46,819 nucleotides of DNA from IMG/VR virus record IMGVR_UViG_3300049172_000218, positions 1 through 46,819 of that record, one strand, 5' to 3'. Below the pieces are notes generated by a model that ran no database searches, was not told the origin of the DNA, and was given only the letters and a program-made list of their open reading frames with translations. This document shows positions 1,110-45,314 of this stretch, one piece after another. This DNA is from a virus. Taxonomy: Duplodnaviria > Caudoviricetes. The position numbers and the translations under genes were made by a program. How positions within the stretch are numbered: the first letter of the stretch is position 1; the number at the start of each line of letters is the position of its first letter.

Positions 1110-1385
1110 TTAACCCAGCATCTTTCGAGGTCCCATCGTCTTGACGACACTGCCTGCGAGCTCATTCAGGCCATAGAGCATCGTCAAATCCTTCTCCAGA
1201 ATCCGCCGATCGAAGATCAGGCCAATCCAGATTCTCATCACTATCTCTGGTGACGGATTCGACTTGTCTCCATGGTAGAGGCGGAAGAGATAGGCTCGGT
1301 CGACCCCACCGTCTTCTGCCACCTGGTTGAGGGTCTTGCCAGTGATCATCAACATTCGGTCGAGTGTGGTTTTGAAATCATCCAT
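1110..1385 (-). CDS. XRE/Cro-like helix-turn-helix regulator
   Basis: GKTLNQVAEDGGVDRAYLFRLYHGDKSNPSPE matches the XRE HTH pattern. Confidence 0.8.
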   Translation of the reverse strand: MDDFKTTLDRMLMITGKTLNQVAEDGGVDRAYLFRLYHGDKSNPSPEIVMRIWIGLIFDRRILEKDLTMLYGLNELAGSVVKTMGPRKMLG

Positions 1386-3040: not shown

Positions 3041-3042
3041 AA

Positions 3043-4842: not shown

Positions 4843-5404
4843 TCCAGTCCCGGTCATCTGCGACCAGTCGTTTGATCACTGGTTGCTGGGAATGGAGTCA
4901 GCCGTTTCCGCTGAAGCGGCTATCCGCTCAGTCGGTGGGAAGGTGACGACCTATTGGGACGAATATGAGATTCGCCAACGGTCCAAGAGACGCCGAGACG
5001 GCATCGATTGGGGCGGGCTCGAACCAGACGGCCTAATCATCGCCGAAATCAATGGCATCAAACACGCCATGTTGCCGGAAATCGATCGAGGCTTCCAACC
5101 GGTCGCCTCAAACGCTCCCAACTCCATTCGCACCAAGGGACACAAATACAAGAACTTTTTCATCCACTACCGGCAGTACGACCCCCTGCTGATGGATCTT
5201 AAGCAGCCGACGGTTCACTTCATTACCAAGTCAAAGCAACGTCTGGAAACGATACGGGAAGAGATCGAGAGCCAGGGCGGCAGGCAATCCTACTGGTACT
5301 CCACCTTCGAATGGATCCAGCCACCGTATTCCTTTCTGGGCCAGGTCTGGGAAGTGTCAGGACGGGAGGGGTACCACTCGCCACTCTCCATCTTTAAGCC
5401 GTAG
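4415..5404 (+). CDS. Replication-relaxation (Replic_Relax-type) relaxase
   Basis: N-terminal wHTH (LEALYRYRAMQPKHMAQLLF...ALTPKG), DHWLLG, PD-(D/E)xK-like core EPDGLI...EIDRG...KGHKY; GGAGG RBS; adjacent to coupling ATPase. Confidence 0.8.
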   Translation: MTMTQPTTKPTNPHPGRMNRDLKNSRKRPMEGIHRGWDALEALYRYRAMQPKHMAQLLFLKLPDPTDPSQSLPKALRSAQQAANRNCLYWLKNLGYIKAISIAIQKGDSATAMEMCALTPKGFEVLQEHRLNHGLEAHSNLVNPVPVICDQSFDHWLLGMESAVSAEAAIRSVGGKVTTYWDEYEIRQRSKRRRDGIDWGGLEPDGLIIAEINGIKHAMLPEIDRGFQPVASNAPNSIRTKGHKYKNFFIHYRQYDPLLMDLKQPTVHFITKSKQRLETIREEIESQGGRQSYWYSTFEWIQPPYSFLGQVWEVSGREGYHSPLSIFKP

Positions 5405-5527: not shown

Positions 5528-6004
5528 CTTTCTTCTTGGCCTTCGGCCATCTGACAGCTTCACTCTAGCAGATCAGTAAAATGTCCAGCTCCACTATGAT
5601 GCTATAGACCTTTCGACCGATCTGCCTGCTACTCGTCACTATAGATTGATCCTCAAGATTTCCCGATCACAATCGGCAGGGCCAGCCCTTGCCGATACCT
5701 CCTCTCCAGACACTCTCCTCCTCTCCGGATTGCTCCCTCTCTCCTTCCACTCCACTCATTTTTCATTTCATTGTCATGCCGCTACGCTCCAGTCGGTCAG
5801 TCGCACTCCTGCGCTCCGTTGACCGCCTTGCGCTCCAGCATCACCAAGCCCTGTCCGCCGATTGAACGGTCAATGGTGAGTCTCTACCTATAGCAACCAG
5901 CACCACGCCGATTTGCCGAAATGCCCATAGCATCTTCGTTCCCGCTTGAATTTGACAGACCTGCTACAGCAAATCTATCAGATGGCCGAAGGCCAAGAAG
6001 AAAG
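5528..6004. repeat. Long imperfect inverted repeat with perfect 27-bp outer arms; candidate single-strand origin or ssDNA promoter
   Basis: 5528-5554 CTTTCTTCTTGGCCTTCGGCCATCTGA is the exact reverse complement of 5978-6004; inner helices are in the same register. Confidence 0.85.
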
Positions 6005-6585: not shown

Positions 6586-6837
6586 ATGAGATCAACACAA
6601 CGGATCGTACTCGCCCATCAAGAGGCTATGAGGCGCAAAGAATCAACCAAGTTCAGCGATGAATTCATCCGCATACAGGAGCGAAACGCAGAACGTAATG
6701 CCCTCCATTGGCTGCATCGTGCGGACATCGATGTCGACAGAGCAAAAGTCCTCGCTCTATTTGAACCTATCCTTCGCCGTTATTGGACACGGTGCGGATA
6801 CTCCCAAAGCTGGATCAATCGTCAATTTGCCCCTTGA
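6586..6837 (+). CDS. Hypothetical protein (start 6586 or 6562)
   Basis: AGGAG RBS before ATG 6586; follows radC. Confidence 0.55.
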   Translation: MRSTQRIVLAHQEAMRRKESTKFSDEFIRIQERNAERNALHWLHRADIDVDRAKVLALFEPILRRYWTRCGYSQSWINRQFAP

Positions 6838-6863
6838 CATTCTCAGCACTCACTAGATATTAT
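6834..6863 (+). promoter_or_regulatory. Sigma70-type promoter of the early small-gene operon
   Basis: TTGACA (6834-6839)-18 nt-TATTAT (6858-6863), followed by GTAGATGTTCAATCAC. Confidence 0.75.
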
Positions 6864-7048
6864 GTAGATGTTCAATCACCCAACAGCCTCGATACTTCCC
6901 CACCTATTTTGACTTTGAACACCATCCACTTGGACCGGTTCCACCTCCGGCCCAAGTGCGGTGGTTCTTGGCGTATGAGAGCACAACTATAGAGAGCAAA
7001 AGGCCTATCGACCGGCCTGTAATCGGTCGAATATGGAGAACCACAGTA

Positions 7049-7450
7049 ATGCTGCCAATGTTCAAACGAAGGAATCCACTAGAAGGGGCGAAGGTTTACC
7101 CGGTAGTTTCGCATCTCGACGCCGCCGCAAATCCTGAAGGGGGCGTGAATCTCACGATCCCAGTCAAGGTGTACGCTGGCCGACACTCCTGCGCGTCTCG
7201 ACTCGTCATCAACGTGGAGCGTGATGAGATAAAACAACTAGCCAGCATGACCGGCAGGATTCGCACACATACCCCGGTCGCAACGCGTAACGGTGCAGCG
7301 AAGAGACCAAAATTCTGCGTCAACAACCACCGACAGATATCCGAGAACGTCATCCACTGGCCTAAGGGTAATGAAGACTGTCGGATTTGTTATTTGGAGT
7401 GGAAGGTCAAGAAGGGCCTCAAGAAGTCCCAGAAGGCGGCTTCCGCATGA
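7049..7450 (+). CDS. Hypothetical protein with C-terminal C-x3-H...C-x2-C Zn motif
   Basis: GGAG RBS before ATG 7049; FCVNNHRQISENVIHWPKGNEDCRICY. Confidence 0.65.
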   Translation: MLPMFKRRNPLEGAKVYPVVSHLDAAANPEGGVNLTIPVKVYAGRHSCASRLVINVERDEIKQLASMTGRIRTHTPVATRNGAAKRPKFCVNNHRQISENVIHWPKGNEDCRICYLEWKVKKGLKKSQKAASA

Positions 7451-7641
7451 CCAAACTGATTATCAGCTCCCTCTTCCTCATGAGCTACCTAGCGCTCATC
7501 TATAAGGGTATTCCGCAATTCTTTCTTACCACTGTCTGGATGGACCTGCTATCGCTTGCCGTGAGCGTGATTGCCGGCGCCATCTTCATGGTTGGCTTTC
7601 TCGAAACCCTCGATCGATCCACCAGAAAGAGGCTGAAGTGA
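7447..7641 (+). CDS. Small two-TM membrane protein
   Basis: ATGA overlap with the previous stop; two hydrophobic stretches. Confidence 0.6.
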   Translation: MTKLIISSLFLMSYLALIYKGIPQFFLTTVWMDLLSLAVSVIAGAIFMVGFLETLDRSTRKRLK

Positions 7642-7820
7642 GCGGAGTTTTGACCGAACCACTTTTCCGCTATCTGAGCGCTTCACGGCTGACCAAACTC
7701 GCGTTGCTATTCTGCTCGCCAACCTTCACCTGGGACGGCCGCTACCGCATAACGACCAAGACTTGGCGAGGTCTGGATTATGTGACGGCGGTAGAAAACT
7801 TAGGCGGTGACGGTCGGTAG
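7638..7820 (+). CDS. Small hypothetical protein
   Basis: GTGA overlap coupling with the upstream gene. Confidence 0.5.
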   Translation: MSGVLTEPLFRYLSASRLTKLALLFCSPTFTWDGRYRITTKTWRGLDYVTAVENLGGDGR

Positions 7821-7896
7821 AAATCCTTGGGGCAATTTCCCGCCCCTATTCTGCCAGTCAGGATGTACCTGGACGGCAGAATGAAAGGCGGGAACC

Positions 7897-8121
7897 ATGA
7901 AGAGTCTGCGCTCCAGGCTGCAATCATTTAGTCGATTTCTAGCTACCGGTCCATTCCGGGGCCAACACAAACCCATTCGATTTGATGAGCACACCATTGC
8001 CACCACCGGCAATGACGCCATCACTCGGATGGAACACCTGGAAGATCGTGCGGACGTGTTCTCCTCGGCTGACGCCGACCGTGCGCGGGATATCGCCTAC
8101 TACGGTGATCGGGCATGGTAG
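7897..8121 (+). CDS. Small hypothetical protein
   Basis: ORF in operon orientation; next ORF overlaps its stop. Confidence 0.45.
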   Translation: MKSLRSRLQSFSRFLATGPFRGQHKPIRFDEHTIATTGNDAITRMEHLEDRADVFSSADADRARDIAYYGDRAW

Positions 8122-8264
8122 AGCGACTGATTGACCCAGCTTGGTGCCAGAGTGAGCCACCCGACTATGAAGACGGAACAGCCGTTTGCACCGAATGCGG
8201 CGCCATTCTCACCGAAGACGACGAGTTCGAGAGCGGCTTGTGCTGGGACTGCATGGAATTCTAG
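8115..8264 (+). CDS. 49-aa acidic Zn-finger protein (not in ORF track)
   Basis: Manual translation MVERLIDPAWCQSEPPDYEDGTAVCTECGAILTEDDEFESGLCWDCMEF; two CxxC pairs. Confidence 0.6.
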   Translation: MVERLIDPAWCQSEPPDYEDGTAVCTECGAILTEDDEFESGLCWDCMEF

Positions 8265-8316
8265 AGACACCGGCTTAGGGGAGCCAGCCGAATACAGGCT
8301 CCCACTACATATCACT

Positions 8317-8949
8317 ATGACGAATTGGAACAGAGACGAACTAGAACAAAAACTGGCTGAAACCAGATCGATGACAGAAACAGCCAAGCATTACAACGTC
8401 ACCAAAGAGCGAATCCGCCAGGTTGCTCATCGTGATATTGGCCGAGAGCGCCTTATTGAGCTTGGCGTCACTATCAAACACGCCTATACCGACTGTCGGG
8501 TCTGTCATCGGTCACTCGACAAATTCAAAGGATCGAAAGGTCGTTGTGCTCGCTGCTACGAGTTCTACCGGGCCCACGGCGTTGAGCGAACCGATGAGCT
8601 TGTGCGCCAGCACATCCTCGAATCTCGAACCGGCCTTCCCCACTCAGTTCCGTGGACTCATTGCAGTCGGGGCCATGAGATGAGTGGAGACAACCTCTAC
8701 GTCAGTCCTAAAGGCGATCGACAGTGTGTTGCCTGTCAACGAATACGGCGGGCGCATTATATGAAGGATCCTCAGCATGTTGAGCGTCAGCGGGAGGCCG
8801 TGCGCAGATATCAATCGAGAAATCGCAACCGGATTCGAGAAGTGCAACGCCACCGCTACGCCACTGATCCCGAGTTTAAAGCGCGAATGAAGGCGCATGA
8901 TCGAAAGCGACGAGAGAAAGATCGCCAGGCTAATGGAGCGGGAGCCTGA
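8317..8949 (+). CDS. DNA-binding protein: sigma70-region-4-like HTH, two Zn motifs and basic tail
   Basis: ETAKHYNVTKERIRQV; CRVC...CARC; THCSRGHEMSGDNLY...RQCVAC; start refined to ATG 8317. Confidence 0.7.
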   Translation: MTNWNRDELEQKLAETRSMTETAKHYNVTKERIRQVAHRDIGRERLIELGVTIKHAYTDCRVCHRSLDKFKGSKGRCARCYEFYRAHGVERTDELVRQHILESRTGLPHSVPWTHCSRGHEMSGDNLYVSPKGDRQCVACQRIRRAHYMKDPQHVERQREAVRRYQSRNRNRIREVQRHRYATDPEFKARMKAHDRKRREKDRQANGAGA

Positions 8950-8974
8950 ATCAATCCCCTCCACCCCTACTACC

Positions 8975-9559
8975 ATGACTGACGCCTATCCATTGGCGTG
9001 GCCTGCAGGTTGGCCACGTACTGAAAATCCAAAACGCTCCGCTTTCCAAACCCCTGGCGGGAAAGCCATCAATAATCTCCTAATGCAACTCAATCGAATG
9101 GGCGCAACCAATATCGTCATCTCTTCGAATGTGATGCTACGCCGTGACGGTTTGCCCTATGCCAACCAACGTCGTCCTGAAGATTCCGGGGTCGCAGTGT
9201 ATTTCACCCTAAAAGGACTACAGCAGTGCATCCCGTGCGATCGGTGGAACTCAGTCGACGACAACATCCACGCTATTGGCTTGACGGTTGAAGCACTTCG
9301 AGGGTTGGAACGGTGGGGCGCCAAAGAGATGGTAGACGCGGCCTTTCAAGGCTTCAGAGCGCTTCCAGCACCATCTACGGAGTCACTCAGTAGCGGATGG
9401 TGGACTGTTCTTGGCATAAGCCCAACCGCTTCAAGGTCGGAGATTGAATCTGCCTATCGACTCTTGGTGAAGAAGCATCATCCCGATATGGGCGGTGACC
9501 CGGAACTTTTCAAGCGTTTGAATGCTGCCTATCAATCAGGGCTTGACGCCACAGCTTAA
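8975..9559 (+). CDS. Phage protein with C-terminal DnaJ (J) domain
   Basis: WWTVLGI...AYRLLVKKHHPDMGGDPELFKRLNAAY (HPD motif); N-terminus AYPLAWPAGWPRT typical of this phage family. Confidence 0.85.
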   Translation: MTDAYPLAWPAGWPRTENPKRSAFQTPGGKAINNLLMQLNRMGATNIVISSNVMLRRDGLPYANQRRPEDSGVAVYFTLKGLQQCIPCDRWNSVDDNIHAIGLTVEALRGLERWGAKEMVDAAFQGFRALPAPSTESLSSGWWTVLGISPTASRSEIESAYRLLVKKHHPDMGGDPELFKRLNAAYQSGLDATA

Positions 9560-9625
9560 CCCCTTGCCGGCCTGAAGGAGCGCCCAACCTTGGACGCTGC
9601 AAAGGCTCAGGCAAGGAAAGACACA

Positions 9626-10453
9626 ATGGGAAAGGTAGAGCGGGCAGAGTTACTCACGTCGCAGATCGATGAAGCCTTGGAGGATCTGGAATACCAACTC
9701 TCACAAGGCCACACGCAAGAGTTTCTGGACATCCTCGACTACTACGCCAAGCACTTCCACGCCTACTCCATCACCAACCTGATGCTCATCCGCGCCCAGA
9801 AGCCGACAGCCACCAGATGTGCCGGGTACAAGCAATGGGAGAAGCTCGGATGCCAGGTCAGGCAGGGTGAGAAGGCGATTTACGTTCGCGCCCCGTGGCT
9901 TCGTAAGGAAGTGGACCAGGAGACCGGTGAAAAGACCGAGAAGCTCATAGGCTACCTCGCGGTTCCAGTGTTCGACGCCTCACAGGTCGATGGAACCGAC
10001 AAGCTCCCCTCCCCCAGACATCCGCTAGAGGGCGACTTCGTACCGCTGTACATGATGGCCCAGCTGGCCACCATCGGGGCGGGAATTGCCTTTGAGGAAT
10101 GTCAGCTGCCCTTCGGGGTGCATGGACTCTCATCCGGTAGGCGGATAGCCATATCCAGCACCCTGTCCACGGCCGAGAAGTTCGTCACCCTGTTGCACGA
10201 GGCTTGTCACGAGGTTCTCCATAAGGGAGAAGACCGGGTGAAGCTCTCACAACGGGAGTTAGAGGCCGAGTCTGCCAGCTACTGCCTCGCCAGGTACTTC
10301 GGGACTGACAATCCCTTCAGCAGGGACTACATCCTGAACTACCGAGGAACGGTCGAAGGGCTGCAAGCCAGCTTCTCCCGCATCCACAGAGCGGTGAAGG
10401 AAATCGTCTCCTGGTTCGAGCTAGAGGAAGAACCGGCCATCGCCGCCGACTAA
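9626..10453 (+). CDS. ardC: ArdC-like ssDNA-binding/antirestriction protein with zincin (HExxH) domain
   Basis: FHAYSITNLMLIRAQKP...AGYKQWEKLGCQVRQGEKAI, VFDASQV, HEACHE, ELEAESASY. Confidence 0.88.
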   Translation: MGKVERAELLTSQIDEALEDLEYQLSQGHTQEFLDILDYYAKHFHAYSITNLMLIRAQKPTATRCAGYKQWEKLGCQVRQGEKAIYVRAPWLRKEVDQETGEKTEKLIGYLAVPVFDASQVDGTDKLPSPRHPLEGDFVPLYMMAQLATIGAGIAFEECQLPFGVHGLSSGRRIAISSTLSTAEKFVTLLHEACHEVLHKGEDRVKLSQRELEAESASYCLARYFGTDNPFSRDYILNYRGTVEGLQASFSRIHRAVKEIVSWFELEEEPAIAAD

Positions 10454-10539
10454 TGCCCACCAGGCAATAGAGGGTAGAGACTCAAAACTCTACTCTCAAC
10501 CTATCTGCACTTCGGCAGAGAACCAAAAAGGAGTCAGCA

Positions 10540-10908
10540 GTGCAAGGCTACTATATGTACATCGTGGACCTGAAGGGCGTACCGTATGAGCCGATCTGGT
10601 ACTACCTGGCCACCACAGAATGGTTTGAGGAATCCAAGCCGTTCCGCAAGATGAGGAAGCGGATGCTCAAGACCCCAGGCGGGGGCTACATGGTGGAAGT
10701 CACCACCATCCCCCCGACGGACTTCGTCAATGATGTGGGAGACGAGGTCTTCTACCAGCTGTTCGCCGGGAGGACTCGCAAGGGGCAGATGCTCCGGGTC
10801 ACCCACGACGACCAGCGCCCTAATATGGTTCGATTCTTCGTCTACACGGTGCCCGTGGAGGAAGGGGGACTAAAAATCGCGGACCCCAACGAAGTCGAGA
10901 TGACCTGA
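10540..10908 (+). CDS. Hypothetical protein
   Basis: AAGGAG RBS before GTG; followed by terminator. Confidence 0.65.
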   Translation: MQGYYMYIVDLKGVPYEPIWYYLATTEWFEESKPFRKMRKRMLKTPGGGYMVEVTTIPPTDFVNDVGDEVFYQLFAGRTRKGQMLRVTHDDQRPNMVRFFVYTVPVEEGGLKIADPNEVEMT

Positions 10909-10934
10909 GAACCTAGAGAGACATACCACACTAT

Positions 10935-10963
10935 AAAGGGGGCTTCGGCCCTCTTTTTATTTT
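10935..10963 (+). terminator. Intrinsic terminator
   Basis: AAAGGGGGC-TTCG-GCCCTCTTT followed by T tract. Confidence 0.85.
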
Positions 10964-10990: not shown

Positions 10991-11019
10991 TTTACATATG
11001 AGATAAATCTCAGTATTAT
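10991..11019 (+). promoter_or_regulatory. Sigma70-type promoter with palindromic operator in the spacer; probably leaderless
   Basis: TTTACA-17 nt-TATTAT; spacer contains TGAGAT-AA-ATCTCA (10999-11012); ATG 6 nt after the -10. Confidence 0.75.
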
Positions 11020-11025
11020 GTATAC

Positions 11026-11451
11026 ATGGAAAAGAAAGTAAAGCTCAACACAGTTCGGTGCAAGCAATGTGGCCACCAATGGCCTCCTAGAGCTCGATTT
11101 GTTGACCGGTGTGCTAACCGTAAGTGTCAGAGTAAGAGGTGGAATCAACCTAAGGAGGAAACAATGATTGAAGTATATATGTGGGAGTATCCGGTAGGTG
11201 ATGAAATTGAGCGATGTTTTCAGAAGGTCGACAAGAGCGACCCAGACCAAAATCCATTCCTAGATGATGAGACTTCTAACCCTACGGATATTGTGATGAT
11301 GTCAGAAAGCCTTTACCAAGCATATGTCAACGCAGCTATGACAAAGTCAGCCCTAGAGGAATCCATGTTGGCTGAGGGTAAACGTTGGAAATCTCTCACT
11401 GACAGGACCTATTCAGAGATGTCCGCTGCCGCAGAGGAGGCCAATGAATAA
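11026..11451 (+). CDS. Zn-ribbon protein fused in frame to an acidic domain (second start at 11164)
   Basis: CKQCGHQWPPR...CANRKC...W; AAGGAGG RBS before in-frame ATG 11164. Confidence 0.65.
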   Translation: MEKKVKLNTVRCKQCGHQWPPRARFVDRCANRKCQSKRWNQPKEETMIEVYMWEYPVGDEIERCFQKVDKSDPDQNPFLDDETSNPTDIVMMSESLYQAYVNAAMTKSALEESMLAEGKRWKSLTDRTYSEMSAAAEEANE

Positions 11452-12169: not shown

Positions 12170-12281
12170 GAGCCAGTTAGCTCAAGGTAGAGTTCTGAAC
12201 GGTAGACGACAGAGTGTAAATCCGTGAATAGCGGTCTCTCGCTGTATTCAGAGGACGCAGGTTCAAATCCTGCCCTGGCTC
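12170..12281 (+). tRNA. tRNA-like gene with about 40 nt of extra sequence in the anticodon loop; identity undetermined
   Basis: Acceptor (G)AGCCAG/CTGGCT(C); TA-GCTC-AAGGTA-GAGT D arm; CTGAA/TTCAG anticodon stem enclosing 47 nt; AGGAC variable loop; GCAGG-TTCAAAT-CCTGC T arm; no encoded CCA. Confidence 0.7.
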
Positions 12282-14466: not shown

Positions 14467-15294
14467 TTGCAACCTATGGCCTCATCCATCGAAACGTCGA
14501 TTCAACCAATTGCCCAGATAGGCCATGGTGCCCTCTACAACGCCGACTGTCTTGACGTACTACCCACTATCGAGAGCGAGTCGGTGGACTTGGTCTTTGC
14601 AGATCCTCCTTTCAACCTTGATAAAAATTACGGGGCTCACTTTCGGGACAAGATCTCCGAAGCAGACTATCTGGACTGGTGCTACCAGTGGCTAGATGAA
14701 TGTATCCGCATCTTGAGCCCGGGAGGCGCACTATTCGTCTACAACCTTCCCAAGTGGAATGTGCTACTGGGCGCGCACATACAGAAACAGTTGGAGTTCC
14801 GGCACTGGATCGCAGTGGATATCAAGCTCTCCCTGCCGATCCCTGGCCGACTCTATCCCTCCCACTATTCGCTCCTCTACTACACCAAGGGCAAGCCACG
14901 AGCATTTACCCGGCCGCGGGTCCCCATTCCCGTCTGCCGTCATTGTGGTGGAGAGATCAAGGATTATGGCGGGCATCGCAACAAGCTCAACCCAGAGGGT
15001 CTTAATCTCACCGACGTTTGGACTGACATCCCTCCAGTCCGCCATCGATCCACCAAGAATCGCGGAGCCAATGAGCTTTCAATTAAGTTGCTCAACCGGG
15101 TCGTAGAGATTGCCTCAAACCCGGGCGACACGATCCTCGACCCATTCGGCGGCGGTGGTTCGACGTTCGAAGCCGCAGAGCGTGGACATCGATCCTGGAT
15201 TGGTATTGAATTGGGCGACTGTCAACCAATCATTGATCGTCTGACACGAGTGGCCTCTGAACCAGTGCCCACCCGTCTGTTCCCTTTGGAATAA
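14467..15294 (+). CDS. Beta-class amino (N4-C/N6-A) DNA methyltransferase, M.BamHI-like
   Basis: VDLVFADPPFN precedes ILDPFGGGGST (beta order); LYPSHYSLLYYTKG. Confidence 0.93.
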   Translation: MQPMASSIETSIQPIAQIGHGALYNADCLDVLPTIESESVDLVFADPPFNLDKNYGAHFRDKISEADYLDWCYQWLDECIRILSPGGALFVYNLPKWNVLLGAHIQKQLEFRHWIAVDIKLSLPIPGRLYPSHYSLLYYTKGKPRAFTRPRVPIPVCRHCGGEIKDYGGHRNKLNPEGLNLTDVWTDIPPVRHRSTKNRGANELSIKLLNRVVEIASNPGDTILDPFGGGGSTFEAAERGHRSWIGIELGDCQPIIDRLTRVASEPVPTRLFPLE

Positions 15295-15838
15295 AAGGGA
15301 CAGACAGATCGACAGAATCATGTTCCACTTCAATCACATGAAAGAGGTGATTGGGTAAAGGGAGATAGCTGTACAATTCAAAGAACCTCTCCACCTCTTG
15401 AAAGTTGCCAATCCGATCCGTGAGATACCGATACAACGCCCTGGACGGCAGCACCAATACGCCAGCCACGATGGTGCCGTGGATTAAGCCGAGCGACAGT
15501 CGATTTAGGGAACGATAGCTGGATGTGACGTTTCCAGTCTCCCACTCGACTCCGAATGTGCCTATGGCTGTCTCCAATGAAGCGTCCACCCTCCCCAGTT
15601 TGCCCGGGAATTCCACCTCCATTTTCCAGCCGTATCGATTGAGCGTTTCAACGAAGGCGTGCTTGATAGGCACCACTCCATTGCCCGTTTTGACTGGGTT
15701 TATACGAAAGTCGGAGGCGTCGGGGGGCCATACTATCGCCCCGATAGCTTCATAAATTTGATCTTGAGCTCGCTGCCATTCTGAAGATTCCGATATCGAT
15801 GAGGCATCCTGGATCTTCTCAGTACGCAGTCGCTTCAT
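15230..15838 (-). CDS. BamHI-like type II restriction endonuclease
   Basis: NGVVPIK, GRVDA, VEWETGNVTSSYRSLNRL, YLTDRIGNFQE resemble R.BamHI motifs; convergent and overlapping with the MTase. Confidence 0.88.
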   Translation of the reverse strand: MKRLRTEKIQDASSISESSEWQRAQDQIYEAIGAIVWPPDASDFRINPVKTGNGVVPIKHAFVETLNRYGWKMEVEFPGKLGRVDASLETAIGTFGVEWETGNVTSSYRSLNRLSLGLIHGTIVAGVLVLPSRALYRYLTDRIGNFQEVERFFELYSYLPLPNHLFHVIEVEHDSVDLSVPFIPKGTDGWALVQRPLVSDDQ

Positions 15839-16035
15839 TGGGCCATTCCAGCCTTCTATTCAGAGTCGGCCATTCCGGCCGACTATTCGAAGGATTCAGC
15901 TCGCTCGCCCGCTCTCAAAGTCAATTATCTACCACCGTACCAGGATGTGGATCGCCGCAGACGAGCCTGTATACCGCTTCGAGGAACTCATCAGTCAGAT
16001 TCGATCGACTATGTATGCAAAGTACACCCACCTCG

Positions 16036-17751
16036 TTACAGTCGGCTCATCTGCGCAGGAACGTTGTAGCAATGTTGAAACACTAGATCGGCGAATTCCG
16101 GAGACTTCGCAGCTCGATCGGCGTCGAATTGGTAGTCGTGCTGGATCGTTACCAAGTCGTTCATCACTGTGGTGAGCGAATCAGCTAGTCGCTGGTCACT
16201 GATTGAGGCAACGTCGAAGTCGACTAGCATGACCGGCCGTATCTTAGCCCGTCCGATTGACATGCTTGCAACATGCATGGCAACGTGAAAACGCACGTTG
16301 TTTCTTTGACCGGCAGCAGCAGCCGCACCAGGCCCCTTCAAAAATCCCTCTATACGGCGCATCAGCTTTGCCGCCACAACATAGCTGTCAACCGGATTAT
16401 TCTGATCAAATATCCGCCGATACAGTAAGTCGTCCTTTAGCAGCGATGAAGGCCGAGCGCGAGCATCATCAGGACGCTGCAACACTATTGACATGTAGGC
16501 CTGTGCCAAATACTTCACCTCAACAATAAGATCTCTCGGCCGTCCTTCATTTTTATAATAGTTCCTTCTTCTGTCGTAATACAATCCGTTGTTTAGAAAA
16601 TGATCCTCAATGTCTCGCTGCATCGTATCCGTCGCACGCAGGGATGCATCCGATATTTTAGCTTGAAAATTCGTCGCCTTGATTATCCTGTCTCGACTGT
16701 CTCCGCTCACCGGTTTTAGCGCTCTAACCAAGACCTTTCGATCATCTACTACCTGACTATTCCGCACGAAATAGTTAAAAATCTCCGTTGATGTCTGCAT
16801 CCCGTTCACGATCTGAGGACGCTCTAGCGCTACTCGTCTCCCTTGTTGTCCAACGTCCGTACACAGGATTGTAATTCCATTGTTGAGCCACCAGAAGTCC
16901 TCATCTTGTTGTCCATGTTCTAGCGTATTCTTTATGTCATCGTTTACTTCATTTCTGCCTTGATAGTCTCGGACATTAGATTCAAATAAGCTCTTCCTCA
17001 TATTGCCATTGTCGTCCCTTATCATTTCATATAGATCTCCTATTTTGACCAGAAATATTAGCCCCCCATCATCTGTCGACAGCGGTCCATCAGCGGCGAC
17101 AAGTTGTAAATTATTCGTTGGGTTCTCGCGTGCGATGGCCAGTAATCTCACTGCACCTAAAAAATTGAACGTTGCGGTGCTCCCCGGAAAGCTATTGGCC
17201 ACCGTGCTCCGAAGCTGTTCTGCAAGGGTCCTAATCTCAGTACTGGGTTCATCCCCTCGACCGGCTGCATAGATGTCAATCGATAAGTCTGGAATGGTAT
17301 GTATTACCTGCTGATGGACCGTTCGAAATCTTTCCATAATCGCAATAACATCAGCATTATACAGGTGGGCGAATTCATGTAATTCTACATTGAGGTTGAA
17401 CAAATTAGCTAGCGAAGCTCTCATCCTGTGGATAGGATCTTCCCCAAATCCTGTCGTATACTTTGATTGAATAATAACTAATCTAAGGTTTACTCTTTGA
17501 GTTCGATCACTGTAATCCACACCCTCCTCGGCAAGGTTGCTGTCCACAAACAGATATATTGAGTCGATTCCACCATCATGAGTTCCATCGACAATGCCAT
17601 CTTTTATTTCATCATAGGACATTTCATAGCTTTTTAGAATTTGCTCTGCACTGAACTCTTCAAAGAAATCGCTTATTTCAGTTGCCCCACCACGTCGCGC
17701 GTGTTCGGCTTCTATCAAATTCTGGAAAATGACTCTGTGGTTTTGTTCCAT
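16036..17751 (-). CDS. AIPR family (abortive infection phage resistance, ParB-like) protein
   Basis: DGGIDSIY, FESNVRDYQG, FWWLNNGITI, QIVNGMQTS, ATNFQ; lower GC than flanks; start refined to MEQNH. Confidence 0.9.
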   Translation of the reverse strand: MEQNHRVIFQNLIEAEHARRGGATEISDFFEEFSAEQILKSYEMSYDEIKDGIVDGTHDGGIDSIYLFVDSNLAEEGVDYSDRTQRVNLRLVIIQSKYTTGFGEDPIHRMRASLANLFNLNVELHEFAHLYNADVIAIMERFRTVHQQVIHTIPDLSIDIYAAGRGDEPSTEIRTLAEQLRSTVANSFPGSTATFNFLGAVRLLAIARENPTNNLQLVAADGPLSTDDGGLIFLVKIGDLYEMIRDDNGNMRKSLFESNVRDYQGRNEVNDDIKNTLEHGQQDEDFWWLNNGITILCTDVGQQGRRVALERPQIVNGMQTSTEIFNYFVRNSQVVDDRKVLVRALKPVSGDSRDRIIKATNFQAKISDASLRATDTMQRDIEDHFLNNGLYYDRRRNYYKNEGRPRDLIVEVKYLAQAYMSIVLQRPDDARARPSSLLKDDLLYRRIFDQNNPVDSYVVAAKLMRRIEGFLKGPGAAAAAGQRNNVRFHVAMHVASMSIGRAKIRPVMLVDFDVASISDQRLADSLTTVMNDLVTIQHDYQFDADRAAKSPEFADLVFQHCYNVPAQMSRL

Positions 17752-17961
17752 GCCTTTATTCCCCAATGGTGGTTCTATATTGCGGAGAGACGGATTGCAG
17801 CGACTCAACCGCGTTGCGTAATTTGCTTGGACCCTTTCCGGGCAATATAGCAAATCACGGTCTAACGGCCAACCGTCGTGCTTGCGTCAAGATTTGGAAA
17901 GTTCTGGGTTGACGTTTGAGTTTAATATTTGATACTTTGTATCAAACACCTACGCACCCCT

Positions 17962-41259: not shown

Positions 41260-41523
41260 ATGGACATAAATCCACTTTTTGTGTTTGCGCTCGCTGGCAT
41301 AGCTGAACTATATCGGCGCTTGGTACACCGCGACTTTGAAGCAGCCGGTCTCATAACCGTCTGCGCGATCGCAGGCGCCATCCTTGGCCACTTCGTCACA
41401 ACACTCGGCATGGATTGGTTCACGGGTCTGTTAGGAGGCTTTACCGCCTCTGGCCTGATAACCGTCGTTGGTGCTGTACGAGGCAAGAGCGCCCCTACCC
41501 CGACAACGCTGACAGAGCGCTAA
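41260..41523 (+). CDS. Putative holin
   Basis: 87 aa, 2-3 hydrophobic helices, AAGGAGGT RBS, follows endolysin. Confidence 0.7.
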   Translation: MDINPLFVFALAGIAELYRRLVHRDFEAAGLITVCAIAGAILGHFVTTLGMDWFTGLLGGFTASGLITVVGAVRGKSAPTPTTLTER

Positions 41524-41525
41524 AC

Positions 41526-41561
41526 AAAAAAGCCCCCGGTTACATTCGGGGGCTTTTCTTT
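41526..41561. terminator. Bidirectional terminator ending late operon and leftward operon
   Basis: AAAAGCCCCCGG-TTACAT-TCGGGGGCTTTT. Confidence 0.88.
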
Positions 41562-41594
41562 ATCCCAGATCTTTTGAAGGTAGGGGATCACATG

Positions 41595-41747
41595 CTACTC
41601 ACCTCCTTTCGGTTCCCGTCTTTTGTAGGGGAACCAGACGATCAGCGATCGAACGTATCCGACCACCCCGATGATGCCAAAGACTGCGCATACCCAGAGA
41701 AACCATAGCGGACCAGTTTCCAGCTCTCCCCCGTCTAGTTTGATCAT
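41595..41747 (-). CDS. 50-aa single-TM protein
   Basis: AGGAGGAGG RBS; MIKLDGG...WFLWVCAVFGIIGVVGYV. Confidence 0.55.
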   Translation of the reverse strand: MIKLDGGELETGPLWFLWVCAVFGIIGVVGYVRSLIVWFPYKRREPKGGE

Positions 41748-41895
41748 CGTCCTCCTCCTGACCCAGAAATGCTGGAATCGGTAGTAGTAATCCCCACACA
41801 ATGCACACTCCGCCAAATACCAGAAGCTGATTAACTGACGGCGGGATGTTGACGAACATCCAATCCACTGCAGTTGCAATCCATAGCTCGATCAT
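41599..41895 (-). CDS. Small membrane protein (C-terminus overlaps next gene)
   Basis: ATGA coupling to upstream gene; LLVFGGVCIVWGLLLPIPAFL. Confidence 0.5.
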   Translation of the reverse strand: MIELWIATAVDWMFVNIPPSVNQLLVFGGVCIVWGLLLPIPAFLGQEEDDDQTRRGRAGNWSAMVSLGMRSLWHHRGGRIRSIADRLVPLQKTGTERR

Positions 41896-42224
41896 GGCGT
41901 TGACCGAATCCTTTTCAGTGCCACGGAATAGAATCCCTGGGCCTGAGTGCAGGTATCAAATGGCAAGTGATGGGGGCGATCCGTCACGCCGTCGCTCTTG
42001 GTCAGAATGACGATCCATTTCTTGGTAAAGGGATCAAGGTAGGGTCGTCTCACCGCTTTATCGCTGAACTCGCGCCTTTGTGGTATTTGGTGCGAGATCT
42101 TCTGGCGCCGGACTCTTTGACCCACCTCTTTGCGATCCTGATCTTGCCTTGCCTCTACCGCGGCCCGCAGGCGGCCTAGAGCCGCCTGCAAGTCATCAAA
42201 TGCCTGTTGTGTGTTCTGGTCCAT
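41892..42224 (-). CDS. Hypothetical protein
   Basis: GAGGAG RBS before ATG 42224 (MDQNTQQAF...). Confidence 0.6.
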   Translation of the reverse strand: MDQNTQQAFDDLQAALGRLRAAVEARQDQDRKEVGQRVRRQKISHQIPQRREFSDKAVRRPYLDPFTKKWIVILTKSDGVTDRPHHLPFDTCTQAQGFYSVALKRIRSTP

Positions 42225-42357
42225 AGCTCTTACTCCTCGTGTGCAATCCATTAAGTTGCTGACTGGCTCTGCGCTGCCGCAGGGCCCATGCCCCATAGAC
42301 GCCGAGACCGATTAGGTGAAGCACGATTATTCCGAGAAACAAATGCAAGATGTTCAT
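42196..42357 (-). CDS. 53-aa single-TM protein (not in ORF track)
   Basis: MNILHLFLGIIVLHLIGLGVYGAWALRQRR...; starts 3 nt after the upstream stop. Confidence 0.55.
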   Translation of the reverse strand: MNILHLFLGIIVLHLIGLGVYGAWALRQRRASQQLNGLHTRSKSYGPEHTTGI

Positions 42358-42360
42358 GGC

Positions 42361-42993
42361 TTAGAAGGGGATATCGCTTGGACTCACATCCTTGGTGTGC
42401 TTGGCTGGATCGACCGGCTCGTCATCTACCTGATCTGCTGCTTCTGGGAAAGATGCAGTGACGGCGTCTTTGGTTTCTGGGGTGACTGCGGGGGCTGTGG
42501 CAGGCTGAGATGAGGAGGCAACGGCCAGGTTTCCAGCGGCTTGGAGGAAGTAGAGTTCAGACAGAGCAAACACTTTCTGTGGCTTGAGGAACTCTTTGGC
42601 TTCTGCTAGACCCTTTTGCTTGTCTTCGGCAGCATCATAGGTCATACGAGCGACGGCGATCATGATGTCTGTGGCGTGGCCGAGCGAGTTCTGGCGAATG
42701 ATTGAGGCTGTTTCTTCGGGACTGCGTTGGTAGCCACCACGCCCGCCTCCACCCTGTCGGTCTTCCTTCAGTTCGATACCAAACTTCTCACTCTGCGTGA
42801 TCGTTCCATTGATCTCGTCGCCTACAACTGGTGCTGGCTTTTTTGCCGATCGAGACATCTTGGCGAGGGTTTGGGTACCGGCCTCATCGGTGACGGCCAC
42901 CTGGTACTCGACCATTGCGACTTCTTCTCCGTCGCGTCCGTTGAATGTGTAGTCGCGAGCTTTGCTTGCGAGGGTTACTTTATACTTTGCCAT
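42361..42993 (-). CDS. SSB-like/ssDNA-annealing protein with acidic DIPF tail
   Basis: OB-like N-terminus, Gly-rich linker, SIIRQNSL helix, C-terminal SDIPF; AAGGAG RBS. Confidence 0.65.
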   Translation of the reverse strand: MAKYKVTLASKARDYTFNGRDGEEVAMVEYQVAVTDEAGTQTLAKMSRSAKKPAPVVGDEINGTITQSEKFGIELKEDRQGGGGRGGYQRSPEETASIIRQNSLGHATDIMIAVARMTYDAAEDKQKGLAEAKEFLKPQKVFALSELYFLQAAGNLAVASSSQPATAPAVTPETKDAVTASFPEAADQVDDEPVDPAKHTKDVSPSDIPF

Positions 42994-43038
42994 AATGATT
43001 AAACTCCTTAGAAATATAGTAATTAATGCTGGAAAAAT

Positions 43039-43215
43039 TTACCCAAGTGGGATCCAGTAGTGCACCAAGACATAGGCGGTTGCGATACCGACCAAAGTCA
43101 GGACACCGACAACGCCTTCTGTATCTTTCTTGATTCGCTGCCATCGCGACAATTTCTTGTGCTTTTTAGCATTGAATAGTACTGGTTGGGGTAAACGAGA
43201 AGATCGTGACCTCAT
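43039..43215 (-). CDS. Small basic protein with C-terminal TM
   Basis: AAGGAGGT RBS before ATG 43215; VVGVLTLVGIATAYVLV. Confidence 0.6.
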   Translation of the reverse strand: MRSRSSRLPQPVLFNAKKHKKLSRWQRIKKDTEGVVGVLTLVGIATAYVLVHYWIPLG

Positions 43216-43258
43216 AGCTGACACCTCCTTTAGGGGTTATTAGTGATTGAACATATAC

Positions 43259-43287
43259 ATAATATACAGCATATATTTAATTGTCAA
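43259..43287 (-). promoter_or_regulatory. Near-consensus leftward sigma70 promoter
   Basis: Minus strand TTGACA-17 nt-TATTAT followed by GTATATGTTCAATCACT. Confidence 0.85.
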
Positions 43288-43375: not shown

Positions 43376-43461
43376 TTGAAATAGGTCGAAAGACCGAGTC
43401 TAATCTCAGACTATTCGAAGACCCCTCCACCTGGCGGCAAACCAAAGGAGGGGTCTTCTTT
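43376..43461 (+). promoter_or_regulatory. Structured 5' leader sequestering the RBS
   Basis: TATAAT 43370-43375; GGTC-GAAA-GACC; GAAGACCCCTCC/GGAGGGGTCTTC 12-bp stem covering GGAGG, then TTT-ATG. Confidence 0.65.
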
Positions 43462-43827
43462 ATGGACCAATCTCAGCCGCTACAACCAGACCACACTAGA
43501 GCAAGGCAGGGAGAGCCGTTCGTGCCCTCCAATTACGAGAAATTCCGCTACGTCACCCGCGCCGGCTGCGGGTGCGACGAAGAGATCTACTTCGACCAAC
43601 CACCACCCGACAAGTGCGATCACCGCAACCTCTACTACCTCGATAAAGACTATGAGGCGGCCAAGCGGATAACCGCAGAATCGGTGGCAGCCAAACTTGA
43701 TGCCAGATCAGCCAGATCACTGGAATCAGAAGTCGGCACAAGACCCGTGCCGGTGCTCATCTACAACCCCTCATCCCAAACAAAAACCGATATCGATCGC
43801 ATCTTCTCCTCTGGGGCGGATTTGTAG
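43462..43827 (+). CDS. Hypothetical protein with CxC...CxH motif
   Basis: ATG directly after the SD-containing stem; GCGCDEE...KCDHRN. Confidence 0.6.
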   Translation: MDQSQPLQPDHTRARQGEPFVPSNYEKFRYVTRAGCGCDEEIYFDQPPPDKCDHRNLYYLDKDYEAAKRITAESVAAKLDARSARSLESEVGTRPVPVLIYNPSSQTKTDIDRIFSSGADL

Positions 43828-44271
43828 TGGCTTGAGACCAGGCGGGACTTGCCACACGTACGGCGACCGCTTGATCTCAGGTTTCTACCTGACACAACGC
43901 TTCGGCTCGGGCAGTCTTGGTGATCTGCCACATATCAAACCGCCATCGTTTGCGGTCTTCTTCAAAGTCCCTGCTCTGCTGAGCCCAGCAACAGGGGACT
44001 TCCAGAAGCCCGTAAGCGACCAACCGTTTACGTTCGGAATCCAGGAGAAGGAGGCGCCACTGACCGAAAGGCGCCAGGGTTGGCAGGGATGCATCAGCCG
44101 CCTGAGAGGATACGTAAAAGCCGCCGCTTTATAGAGCGTCCCAAGTTTCCTGCCTATCCGCAGCCCCTGGATGGAAGGAGATAAGGGCGGTCAATGTCAA
44201 AAACGGCCGCTGACTAAAAAACGGGAAAACTCGAGAATTGGACAGAATAGCCGTTCGTGATATTATGTGAA

Positions 44272-44451
44272 TGCTTCTCCATAGCAAAAACGCAGGAATG
44301 AGTAGCGGTCTACGTGATCGACGCTGAGAGTGATTGAACACTTCTCTCCGACCCTCTCGTTCCTGCTTTTTTGGTCTTGAGAGGTGGTTAACGGCGCAAG
44401 CGAATTAATACTCAGGTCAGAAGGCGGGGCGGCACCTACCCCGCCTTCTTT
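44272..44451 (+). ncRNA. Candidate small regulatory RNA (about 180 nt)
   Basis: Upstream TGGACA-16-(TGa)TATTAT (44239-44266); GCAGGAATGAG/CTCGTTCCTGC closing stem around two hairpins; terminator at 44419-44451. Confidence 0.6.
44419..44451 (+). terminator. Intrinsic terminator
   Basis: AGAAGGCGGGG...CCCCGCCTTCT followed by TT. Confidence 0.7.
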
Positions 44452-44756
44452 GCGTTTGTGCCACATTGCAGCATCGTGATATTATGTAAATGGTTCCGGA
44501 CGAACTACGTGTTTCCTTCATCCATCCCACTACTGGGCAGCTCAGGCTCCTGCCTGGGCTGGTGTCCATTTCACCAAGAAGTGGTTGCCAGCTTGAGTAG
44601 AAGTTGCACTTCGGCCTCCCAACTTCGGTTGGGGATTTACTTTTCCCTCTCAGTTCTTCGGAATTGGGGGGTTGGAGCGCAACAGCTCACCTATTCGTAG
44701 ATAGTGGAAATCATTTCTACGTTTGGAGACTTCAGCCGTTGATAACCGGCGCCTCT

Positions 44757-45314
44757 ATGAGACGAATCCTCATCATCCCCGCCCTGGCCATCCTCGGACT
44801 GTCAGCGGCTCCATCTTTTCCAACTCATTCATCAGAAACCTTTCGATCCTTTCCTCCAAAGCAAGTCATGGCCTCACCGAAGGTCGAAGCTCCACAAGCC
44901 ACACAAACGGCTATAGAGCCTCTCTACGTTGAGCCAACACCCGAACCTCCTCCTATCCCTACTCCATACCCCACAAGCGCTCCTAGGCCCCAAATCGGCT
45001 CAATCGCTGCCATGCTGTGGCACAAAACCGCTGCCATGCTGTGGCACAAAACCGCTGCCAGGTTTGGATCGGCCCAAGTGCCGTTCATGCAGGATCTCGT
45101 TGGTCGAGAATCTGAGCTCAATCCCTACGCCATCAATACATCATCCGGTGCCTGTGGTATTCCCCAGGCTTACCCCTGCTCGAAGCTGCTGGCTGTCATC
45201 GGTTCACTGGATAACGTCGAAGGTCAGCTCGACTGGATGGTCGATTACATCGCCAACCGGTATGGCACTCCCGCCAAGACGATCGATCACCACAACGCCA
45301 AAGGCTGGTACTGA
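44757..45314 (+). CDS. Secreted lytic transglycosylase (SLT/lysozyme-like fold)
   Basis: Signal peptide MRRILIIPALAILGLSAA, Pro-rich linker, GRESELNPYAINTSSGACGIPQA...YIANRYGTP...GWY. Confidence 0.85.
   Translation: MRRILIIPALAILGLSAAPSFPTHSSETFRSFPPKQVMASPKVEAPQATQTAIEPLYVEPTPEPPPIPTPYPTSAPRPQIGSIAAMLWHKTAAMLWHKTAARFGSAQVPFMQDLVGRESELNPYAINTSSGACGIPQAYPCSKLLAVIGSLDNVEGQLDWMVDYIANRYGTPAKTIDHHNAKGWY
45005..45060 (+). repeat. 24-bp in-frame tandem duplication (2.3 copies)
   Basis: CGCTGCCATGCTGTGGCACAAAAC x2 plus CGCTGCCA, giving AAMLWHKT x2. Confidence 0.95.

What the first reader, a model, noticed from the sequence alone, without database searches (positions are those of the whole stretch)
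44239..44451. Candidate trans-acting antisense sRNA complementary to the 5' ends of two distant early transcripts (RNA-based immunity switch)
Seen: a promoter (TGGACA-16-TGaTATTAT) and terminator (44419-44451) delimit about 180 nt. It folds as a long closing stem (CAAAAA.GCAGGAATGAG/CTCGTTCCTGC.TTTTTG) around two hairpins, one being GAGAGTG-ATTGAA-CACTTCTC. Its AGTGATTGAACA (44329-44340) is the exact complement of TGTTCAATCACT at the predicted +1 of the leftward promoter (43253-43242, 12 nt) and of TGTTCAATCAC at the predicted +1 of the 6834 promoter (6869-6879, 11 nt), with the seed exposed in the loop. Known: P1 c4 and P4 CI are multi-stem RNAs whose loops pair with early leaders to enforce lysogeny. 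No classical cI with a peptidase domain is visible here. Inference: an undescribed sRNA silencing both early operons 37 kb apart. Alternative: the 11-mer is a DNA operator present three times.
Basis: partly seen in the sequence, partly recalled or inferred. Interest (0 to 1): 0.82.

Follow-up and report, generated by a model that had tools for sequence, protein, structure and literature searches.

The report
Prophage RNA mirroring two transcript starts
A soil prophage, likely of a Chloroflexota bacterium, carries a predicted small RNA gene whose predicted hairpin is the exact complement of the predicted first ten bases of its two strongest-looking early transcripts, so one RNA likely turns both operons down by base pairing, although no transcript has been seen and a stabilising RNA or a protein operator is not excluded.

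Summary
TGTTCAATCAC occurs exactly three times in this 46.8-kb provirus. Two copies sit at the predicted -1..+10 of the only two 11/12 consensus promoters (6834 right, 43287 left). The third is reversed, in the apical hairpin of a promoter- and terminator-bounded, strongly folded RNA (z about -4.9). The match ends at the predicted +1 G, so the usable duplex is 10-11 bp, net about -8 to -10 kcal/mol. None of 133 unrelated control loci showed this layout. Rfam has no match, C4 included.

Best reading: a trans-encoded RNA whose loop captures the free 5' tails of both early transcripts (IS10 RNA-OUT geometry, c4/CI-like role) and likely dampens them.

The 'immunity switch' is not shown. An XRE repressor candidate lies beside the integrase, only 2 of 8 promoter-like sites carry the tag, and 5'-end pairing can also stabilise mRNA (FasX, RoxS). 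After excision the two promoters would be back to back, about 10 kb apart rather than 37. No diverged relative covering the RNA was found, so covariation is untested and a DNA operator remains possible.

The parts
44239..44266 (+). Predicted promoter of the RNA: TGGACA-16-TATTAT with extended TG; predicted +1 at G44273
   Evidence: one of 8 promoter-like sites in the genome at the threshold
44273..44452 (+). Predicted ~180-nt non-coding RNA; a ~100-nt form ending at the U run 44367-44372 is possible
   Evidence: fold z -4.95; no Rfam match; only an 18-codon frame from the ATG at -2 on the sense strand
44284..44374 (+). Core domain: ~23-bp interrupted stalk closing a 3-bp minor hairpin (44313-44323) and the major hairpin (44326-44346)
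   Evidence: z -4.82
44329..44339 (+). Seed (A)GUGAUUGAAC, the complement of predicted +1..+10/+11 of both targets; loop AUUGAA at 44333-44338 unpaired
44419..44452 (+). Intrinsic-terminator-like hairpin with a U-rich tail
43242..43287 (-). Leftward promoter TTGACA-17-TATTAT (11/12) and target 1, predicted +1..+11 at 43252-43242; GGAGG at +25, AUG at +38 (43215)
41522..43215 (-). Leftward operon: small ORF, 210-aa protein ending in DIPF (SSB-like tail, recalled; no family hit), two unknown ORFs, then a bidirectional terminator-like hairpin near 41522-41562
6834..6879 (+). Rightward promoter TTGACA-18-TATTAT (11/12) and target 2, predicted +1..+10 at 6870-6879
6870..6966 (+). C-rich, G-poor leader (23 C, 5 G in 61 nt), an internal UUGAAC (6915-6920) that can pair with its own 5' end, and a strong hairpin at 6921-6965
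6870..10956 (+). Rightward early operon: unknown ORFs, HNH-like, DnaJ-domain and ArdC-like anti-restriction proteins, ending at a terminator-like hairpin (10935-10956)
1110..1385 (-). XRE/HTH_3 protein (91 aa, no peptidase domain) tail to tail with the integrase; repressor candidate for the operator rival
   Evidence: Pfam HTH_3 E 6e-4, below cut-off; Atlas HTH clusters, commonest Chloroflexota; G001 homologue 38% identical and over the HTH_3 cut-off
44458..44485 (+). Next promoter, directly behind the terminator; shares CGTGATATTATGTRAATG with the RNA's promoter but diverges after +1 and lacks the tag

Best explanation
The locus is likely a trans-acting antisense RNA gene whose predicted hairpin loop is the exact complement of the predicted first 10-11 bases of two early transcripts, and it would likely reduce expression of both operons. 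Shown in the sequence: the promoter and terminator consensus sites, the three copies of the motif, and the match ending at the predicted +1. Computed: the fold, the open loop, the open target tails, and a favourable net pairing energy. Inferred steps: (1) The RNA is made constitutively from its own promoter. (2) The free 5' tail GUUCAA of each nascent transcript pairs with the loop AUUGAA and then displaces the 3-bp GUG/CAC stem, giving 10-11 bp while the long stalk holds the RNA together. A free 5' end can thread a closed loop, which would explain why the tag sits at +1, as in IS10 RNA-IN/RNA-OUT. (3) On the left message, the bound ~100-nt RNA covers the only open stretch in front of a weakly self-paired Shine-Dalgarno hairpin and hinders ribosome loading. 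On the right message, whose leader is C-rich and followed by a hairpin, it likely favours premature (Rho-type) termination, as P4 CI does. If transcription starts two bases earlier, both messages open with leaderless AUG-UUC-AAU-CAC mini-ORFs (4 and 14 codons), and the RNA would block their initiation. It is more likely a second lock on two accessory early operons beside the XRE protein than the phage's sole immunity factor.
For: Three exact copies only. The two tagged promoters are the only 11/12 sites among 8 promoter-like sites, and the RNA's own promoter is one of those 8. Five promoters share TATTAT-GT-R-N-A-Y-R, but only these two stay identical from +2 to +10, so the tag goes beyond the promoter consensus. 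Chance of the complement in 180 nt is 1.4e-4. In the control, 12 of 863 promoter-like sites in 133 loci (1.8 Mb) had such a complement behind another promoter, and none of these also shared its start with a second promoter. All 11 positions are identical in three copies with unrelated downstream flanks, as Watson-Crick pairing demands. Loop unpaired 0.95-0.99; left target +1..+9 unpaired 0.90-0.98 (0.75 at +10); net energies about -8.3 (left) and -10.3 (right, with a second site) kcal/mol. Close relatives in runs X2 and X3 cover the RNA with 7 of 240 and 3 of 151 differences, and the four listed changes lie in the promoter spacer, at a stalk mismatch, or are energy-neutral. Precedent for the geometry: PMC4737173. 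Precedent for the role: PMC4825925 and PMC12197685.
Against: No transcript or start-site data. No covariation: no diverged relative covering the RNA was found. Seed invariance in two 97-98% identical relatives is expected anyway, and 4 of their differences were not listed. The duplex is short, does not reach the left Shine-Dalgarno (+25) and lies about 180 nt from the first long right-operon ORF start (7049). The second pairing site is weak: p 0.03 and 0.09 against shuffles, and whole-duplex p 0.23-1.0 against random genomic sequence. Blocking +1..+10 does not change the predicted leader hairpins. The right target's 5' end is partly self-paired (unpaired 0.23-0.59 at +1..+9). Pairing at the extreme 5' end is known to stabilise mRNA. 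The control loci are partly redundant and not matched in composition.
Confidence: 0.48

Rival explanations
1. The same RNA and the same pairing, with the opposite sign: binding +1..+10 shields the 5' ends from pyrophosphohydrolase or RNase J-type attack and stabilises both early transcripts, as RoxS does for yflS and FasX for ska.
For: The match stops at the predicted +1 G and covers no ribosome-binding site. PMC5419742 shows that duplexing the extreme 5' end blocks RNase J1 and cites FasX-ska (passages). On the right leader the sRNA would also displace the cis 5'-end pairing with 6915-6920.
Against: The phage RNAs of this layout that I read about repress (c4, CI). Two near-consensus promoters in a provirus need dampening more than boosting (inference). 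The host's RNase set is unknown.
Confidence: 0.18
2. The 11-mer is a DNA operator for a phage protein (the XRE HTH at 1110-1385 or another DNA binder) that represses both promoters at -1..+10. The third copy is an auxiliary site, and its dyad creates the hairpin.
For: The position over +1 is a classic repressor position. All copies share a weak dyad TGnTnnAnCA (6 of 10; 8 of 12 in the RNA copy). An XRE protein is present and conserved in G001. Asymmetric phage operators exist (mycobacteriophage L5 stoperators, recalled).
Against: There are no degenerate copies (none with 1 mismatch), and none upstream of the HTH gene or the integrase. The asymmetric centre is identical in all three copies. The third copy is reversed, lies at +58 of a non-coding unit with no -10 box on its own strand, and sits at the tip of a z -4.8 structure. 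At the promoters the best dyad is centred about 5 bp away from the one in the RNA copy.
Confidence: 0.2
3. The direction is reversed or the action is at initiation: abundant 5' fragments or abortive products GUUCAAUCAC from the two promoters bind the loop and remodel or titrate the structured RNA, or the RNA pairs with the melted non-template strand of initiating complexes.
For: The match equals the first 10 transcribed bases, the length range of abortive products (general knowledge). The inner domain is only marginally stable: opening the seed costs 4.9 kcal/mol.
Against: The genes behind the terminator have their own promoter at 44458, so read-through control looks unnecessary. Nothing in the data points to action on DNA.
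Confidence: 0.07
4. A promoter duplication explains the two tagged copies, and the third, reversed copy is chance or a relic inside an unrelated structured RNA.
For: The promoters share 22 of 23 bp, and a second promoter pair also shares about 18 bp. A third 11-mer anywhere in the genome has an expectation of 0.018, and the finding was selected from a very large scan.
Against: The copy falls within one of few promoter-headed non-coding units (1.4e-4), in its apical loop, and ends at the predicted +1. None of 133 control loci shows the layout.
Confidence: 0.07

Closest known systems
P1/P7 c4 antisense RNA (Rfam RF01695) and P4 CI RNA
   Same: Small multi-stem phage RNA with a closing stalk; complementary bases placed in loops; acts in trans on early phage transcripts (PMC12197685, PMC4825925, passages).
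   Different: No match to RF01695 at E <= 10. c4 and CI are processed out of the very leader they control (RNase P substrates, PMC5499578) and pair with two internal sites. This RNA has its own promoter and terminator and matches one site at the extreme 5' end of each of two separate operons. Probable host phylum differs (Chloroflexota versus Proteobacteria).
IS10 RNA-OUT / RNA-IN
   Same: [quoted passage not shown]
   Different: RNA-OUT is cis-encoded, has one target, and its duplex extends over the ribosome-binding site. Here the RNA is trans-encoded, has two targets, and the perfect match is only 10-11 nt.
RoxS-yflS (Bacillus subtilis) and FasX-ska (Streptococcus pyogenes)
   Same: [quoted passage not shown]
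   Different: These are chromosomal sRNAs with C-rich seeds, and the outcome is stabilisation. Here the RNA is phage-borne, the seed is not C-rich, both targets are the phage's own, and the sign is unknown.

Membership tests
C4 antisense RNA (RF01695) | Match to the family covariance model | tested here: not met
   0 matches at E <= 10 in G000; none in Rfam scans
c4 / CI immunity RNAs | Multi-stem RNA with the antisense bases in a loop | tested here: met
   Predicted fold only; 6 of 10 seed bases unpaired
c4 / CI immunity RNAs | Encoded within, and processed from, the leader of the operon it controls | tested here: not met
   Separate promoter-terminator unit about 1 kb from the left target on the other strand and far from the right target
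c4 / CI immunity RNAs | Two separate pairing sites per target transcript | tested here: inconclusive
   Second-site p 0.03 and 0.09 against shuffles; not better than random genomic sequence
c4 / CI immunity RNAs | RNase P maturation | not testable with these tools
   No RNA data; the stalk is followed by a U run, with no CCA
c4 / CI immunity RNAs | Causes translation block or premature termination and confers immunity | not testable with these tools
   Needs reporter and superinfection assays
IS10 RNA-OUT type | Loop pairs with the 5'-terminal bases of the target | tested here: met
   Predicted only: the match ends at the 7th base after the -10 box in both promoters
IS10 RNA-OUT type | Cis-encoded, with a long duplex over the ribosome-binding site | tested here: not met
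   Longest perfect match is 12 nt of DNA; the Shine-Dalgarno lies at +25
5'-end-protecting sRNAs (RoxS, FasX) | Raises target half-life by blocking 5'-dependent decay | not testable with these tools
   Geometry fits; no stability data
Protein operator (XRE repressor) | Common dyad, with degenerate copies near regulated promoters including the repressor's own | tested here: inconclusive
   Weak shared dyad of 6 of 10; no 1-mismatch copies and none near the HTH gene

The most novel reading that the evidence does not exclude
The RNA is this prophage's main lysogeny lock: it recognises promoters by a 10-base address written at the very start of their transcripts and shuts down both back-to-back early operons co-transcriptionally. 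This would be an RNA taking the place of a lambda-type repressor at PL- and PR-like promoters, and a first RNA-based phage switch in Chloroflexota, with the tag defining immunity groups.
Probability: 0.17. Interest if true: 0.8.

Novelty: new variant of a known kind. Interest (0 to 1): 0.5.

Why it matters
Phage immunity RNAs described so far (c4, CI) come from enterobacterial phages and act on their own leader. A stand-alone RNA that addresses two separate operons through a tag at +1 would extend RNA control of phage early genes to a phylum with almost no phage genetics. It also gives a minimal, swappable module (a 10-base tag plus a loop) for asking whether pairing at a transcript's extreme 5' end silences or stabilises it. 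The module can be tested in a laboratory E. coli strain because both target promoters are near the sigma-70 consensus.

Tried and rejected
Relatives. IMG/VR pattern scans found 0 for the promoter plus tag, 1 chance hit in an unrelated gene for the loop hairpin and 0 for the stalk. The one metagenome scan (promoter plus stalk) returned 120 loci from 56 of 64 parts of the collection. None has blastn similarity to the window at 1e-4, and the matches I could view were chance or coding hits (part of the output was cut). Single-protein scans found no relative, or only distant low-GC phages. The capsid alignment gave G001-G003 and two Phycisphaerae loci. G001 shares the gene order but its record ends in the tail genes, so its lack of the RNA says nothing. 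GenBank phages gave three DUF559-region hits only, and plasmids none. The ORF at 43462 has one relative without context, and the 210-aa ORF none.

Expression. No RNA holder was listed.

Anchoring on the freshwater-1-like hairpin gave 65 loci with no homology to the window beyond about 30 bp.

Rejected ideas. Two-site pairing as support: not significant. The T>A variant at 44355 as a compensatory change: energy -38.8 versus -38.6, neutral. The motif as a shared inverted -35 box: a -10 box follows only at the left promoter. A LexA-type GAAC-N4-GTTC box (recalled motif): the second half does not match. A conformational switch in the right leader: the hairpin is unchanged when +1..+10 is blocked. 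A YUNR motif (UUGA) is in the loop, but it is too likely by chance to count.

Literature. Four searches bear on prior description and listed no paper on such an RNA in Chloroflexota phages, judged from listings and abstract starts only. The supplement of PMC5737381, which may describe freshwater-1, could not be read.

Full report
Setting. The window is a whole IMG/VR provirus record, 99% complete by CheckV, 53% G+C, held in full by one soil metagenome run that may be its source. The gene order is: integrase, XRE-like HTH, coupling-protein-like ATPase, RadC, an early operon with HNH-like, DnaJ-domain and ArdC-like proteins, restriction-modification cargo, terminase, Mu-like head genes, tail, amidase, a leftward operon, the region in question, transglycosylase, DUF559 and HNH. 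The only integrase relatives with an organism name are Thermomicrobiales (52% identity) and Chloroflexi (32%), and the top HTH look-alike clusters are commonest in Chloroflexota. The host is therefore likely Chloroflexota; this is inference.

Observation. TGTTCAATCAC has three perfect copies and no one-mismatch copy. A script inventory (sigma-70 score of at least 10 of 12, or 9 with extended TG) gives 8 promoter-like sites. Five share TATTAT-GT-R-N-A-Y-R, and one of them puts the ATG of ORF 11026 at the 7th base, which fits +1 at that position. On that rule the two 11/12 promoters (6834 rightward, 43287 leftward) both start GUUCAAUCAC, and the RNA starts at G44273. The RNA folds far better than shuffles (z -4.95 and -4.82) into a long stalk closing two hairpins, and it ends in a terminator-like hairpin directly before the next promoter. 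The seed is 44330-44339; six of its bases form the apical loop (unpaired 0.95-0.99) and four lie in a 3-bp stem. Rfam has no match at gathering score except a tRNA elsewhere, nothing over this RNA at E <= 10, and no C4 match.

Is it chance? The complement of the 10-mer is expected 1.4e-4 times in 180 nt. As an empirical control I ran the same rule on 133 held loci of at least 5 kb (1.8 Mb, 863 promoter-like sites; shorter loci and G001-G003 were left out of that tally). Twelve sites had an exact complement within 200 nt behind another promoter, two start 10-mers were shared, and none had both; the G001-G003 pieces had none. These loci are partly redundant and differ in composition, so this is a rough control. 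The other look-alike promoter pair (44239 and 44458) diverges right after +1, so the shared +2..+10 is more than promoter consensus.

Pairing. Opening the seed costs 4.9 kcal/mol, and opening the left and right tails 0.25 and 0.9. The best net values are about -8.3 for the left target (10 bp) and -10.3 for the right target, the latter using a further 4+5+2 bp. That extension, and a 7+5 bp site around the left AUG, are not convincing: p 0.03 and 0.09 against shuffles, and no better than random genomic sequence. Blocking +1..+10 leaves the predicted leader hairpins as they are. The left leader has an open first 15 nt followed by a weak hairpin over GGAGG. The right leader is C-rich (23 C, 5 G in 61 nt), can fold its own UUGAAC back on the 5' end, and has a strong hairpin at 6921-6965. 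Both tags follow an ATG at -2, which would give MFNH-stop and a 14-codon peptide if transcription began there. The same ATG stands in two untagged promoters, so it may be only consensus.

Relatives. Short contigs in runs X2 and X3 cover the RNA with 7 of 240 and 3 of 151 differences. The four listed positions are in the promoter spacer (44247, 44254), at a stalk mismatch (44367) and at 44355, where the change is energy-neutral; four differences were not listed. No listed change hits the seed, but at this divergence that is expected. X2 contigs over the neighbouring ORF differ more (17 of 151), though they may come from other strains. The closest genome, G001 (capsid 60%, same gene order, HTH homologue 38% identical), ends in the tail genes and lacks the region. 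All other searches were empty or chance (see Tried and rejected). Covariation, the decisive comparative test, could not be done.

Mechanism. I favour a trans-acting RNA that captures both 5' tails with its loop and lowers expression (0.48). The geometry is that of IS10, where the RNA-OUT loop initiates on the unstructured 5' tail of RNA-IN and 5'-end contact may hinder ribosomes without covering the binding site (PMC4737173, passages). The role resembles P4 CI, which pairs with seqA and seqC to cause premature termination (PMC4825925, passages), and P1 c4, which blocks ant translation through loop sequences (PMC12197685, passages; PMC10695390, table row). The sign is open, because RoxS and FasX bind the extreme 5' end and stabilise their targets (PMC5419742, passages); I give this 0.18. 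An operator for the XRE protein keeps 0.2: the position fits and there is a weak dyad, but the three copies are identical across their asymmetric centre, have no degenerate siblings, and the third is reversed in the tip of a stable RNA structure. Taken together, the readings in which the RNA pairs with these 5' ends add up to about 0.7.

On 'immunity switch'. No Peptidase_S24 cI was found among the 50 ORFs scanned, but a peptidase-less XRE protein sits beside the integrase in both this genome and G001. Six of eight promoter-like sites lack the tag, and the scanned ORFs of the tagged operons are accessory or unknown. If the ends join on excision, the two promoters face outward across about 10.4 kb (plus the att spacer) holding the RNA, the integrase and the HTH gene, a PL/PR-like layout (inference). 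A second lock on these operons is more likely than sole immunity.

Known families and novelty. It is not a C4 member (model not met; not embedded in its target leader). c4 and CI are RNase P-type substrates (PMC5499578, passages), and the c4 motif is listed for Proteobacteria and phages (PMC2864571, table row). It works like a c4/CI RNA with RNA-OUT geometry, so I class it as a new variant of a known kind. Searches listed no description of such an RNA; I saw listings and abstract starts only, and subscription journals are mostly missing. Earlier notes of this scan report similar start-mirroring RNAs in unrelated phages, and none resembles this sequence. They are unchecked here and are not counted as support, but they suggest that the layout recurs, which lowers its uniqueness and raises its value as a class.

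Verdict. The feature is real and probably an RNA-pairing element; its sign and role are untested. Interest 0.5.

Noticed in passing
window 43960-44017 (+), within the ORF-poor stretch 43830-44230: Sub-threshold match to Rfam freshwater-1 (30 bits, E 2.4e-4, cut-off 72). The same hairpin core occurs in most of 65 IMG/VR loci with longer conserved flanks. The stretch is 97-99% conserved in X2-X4 and has diverged copies in other X1 contigs; it may be a second, larger structured RNA or origin.
   Followed up: partly
window 43409-43462 (+): A strong hairpin (GAAGACCCCTCC...GGAGGGGTCTTC) holds the GGAGG directly before the ATG of the 121-aa ORF; window fold z -5.9. Possible translational control.
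   Followed up: no
window 6915-6922 (+): The right leader carries its own TTGAACAC, identical to 8 bases of the sRNA loop region, and is predicted to pair with its own 5' end; a cis mimic of the seed.
   Followed up: partly
window 11014-11028 (+): Leaderless gene: TATTAT, 6 bases, then the ATG of a zinc-ribbon-like ORF.
   Followed up: partly
window 2045-5404 (+) and L132 14755-17445 (-): A coupling-protein-like ATPase (TrwB/TraD, HerA hits below or near cut-off) and a conserved partner ORF follow the integrase and HTH in both this provirus and G001; an unusual module for a tailed prophage.
   Followed up: no
window 5528-6004: A 55-bp inverted repeat (85% complementary), 367 bp apart, upstream of radC.
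   Followed up: no
window 14467-17853: Defence cargo: N6/N4 methylase, BamHI-family endonuclease and AIPR protein just before the terminase genes. G001 has a different restriction cassette in the same position.
   Followed up: no
window 12171-12281 (+): A tRNA match spanning 111 nt, longer than the 71-position model, so it may have an insertion or intron.
   Followed up: no
window 45002-45049: A 24-bp tandem duplication inside the transglycosylase gene; the X1 contigs break here.
   Followed up: no
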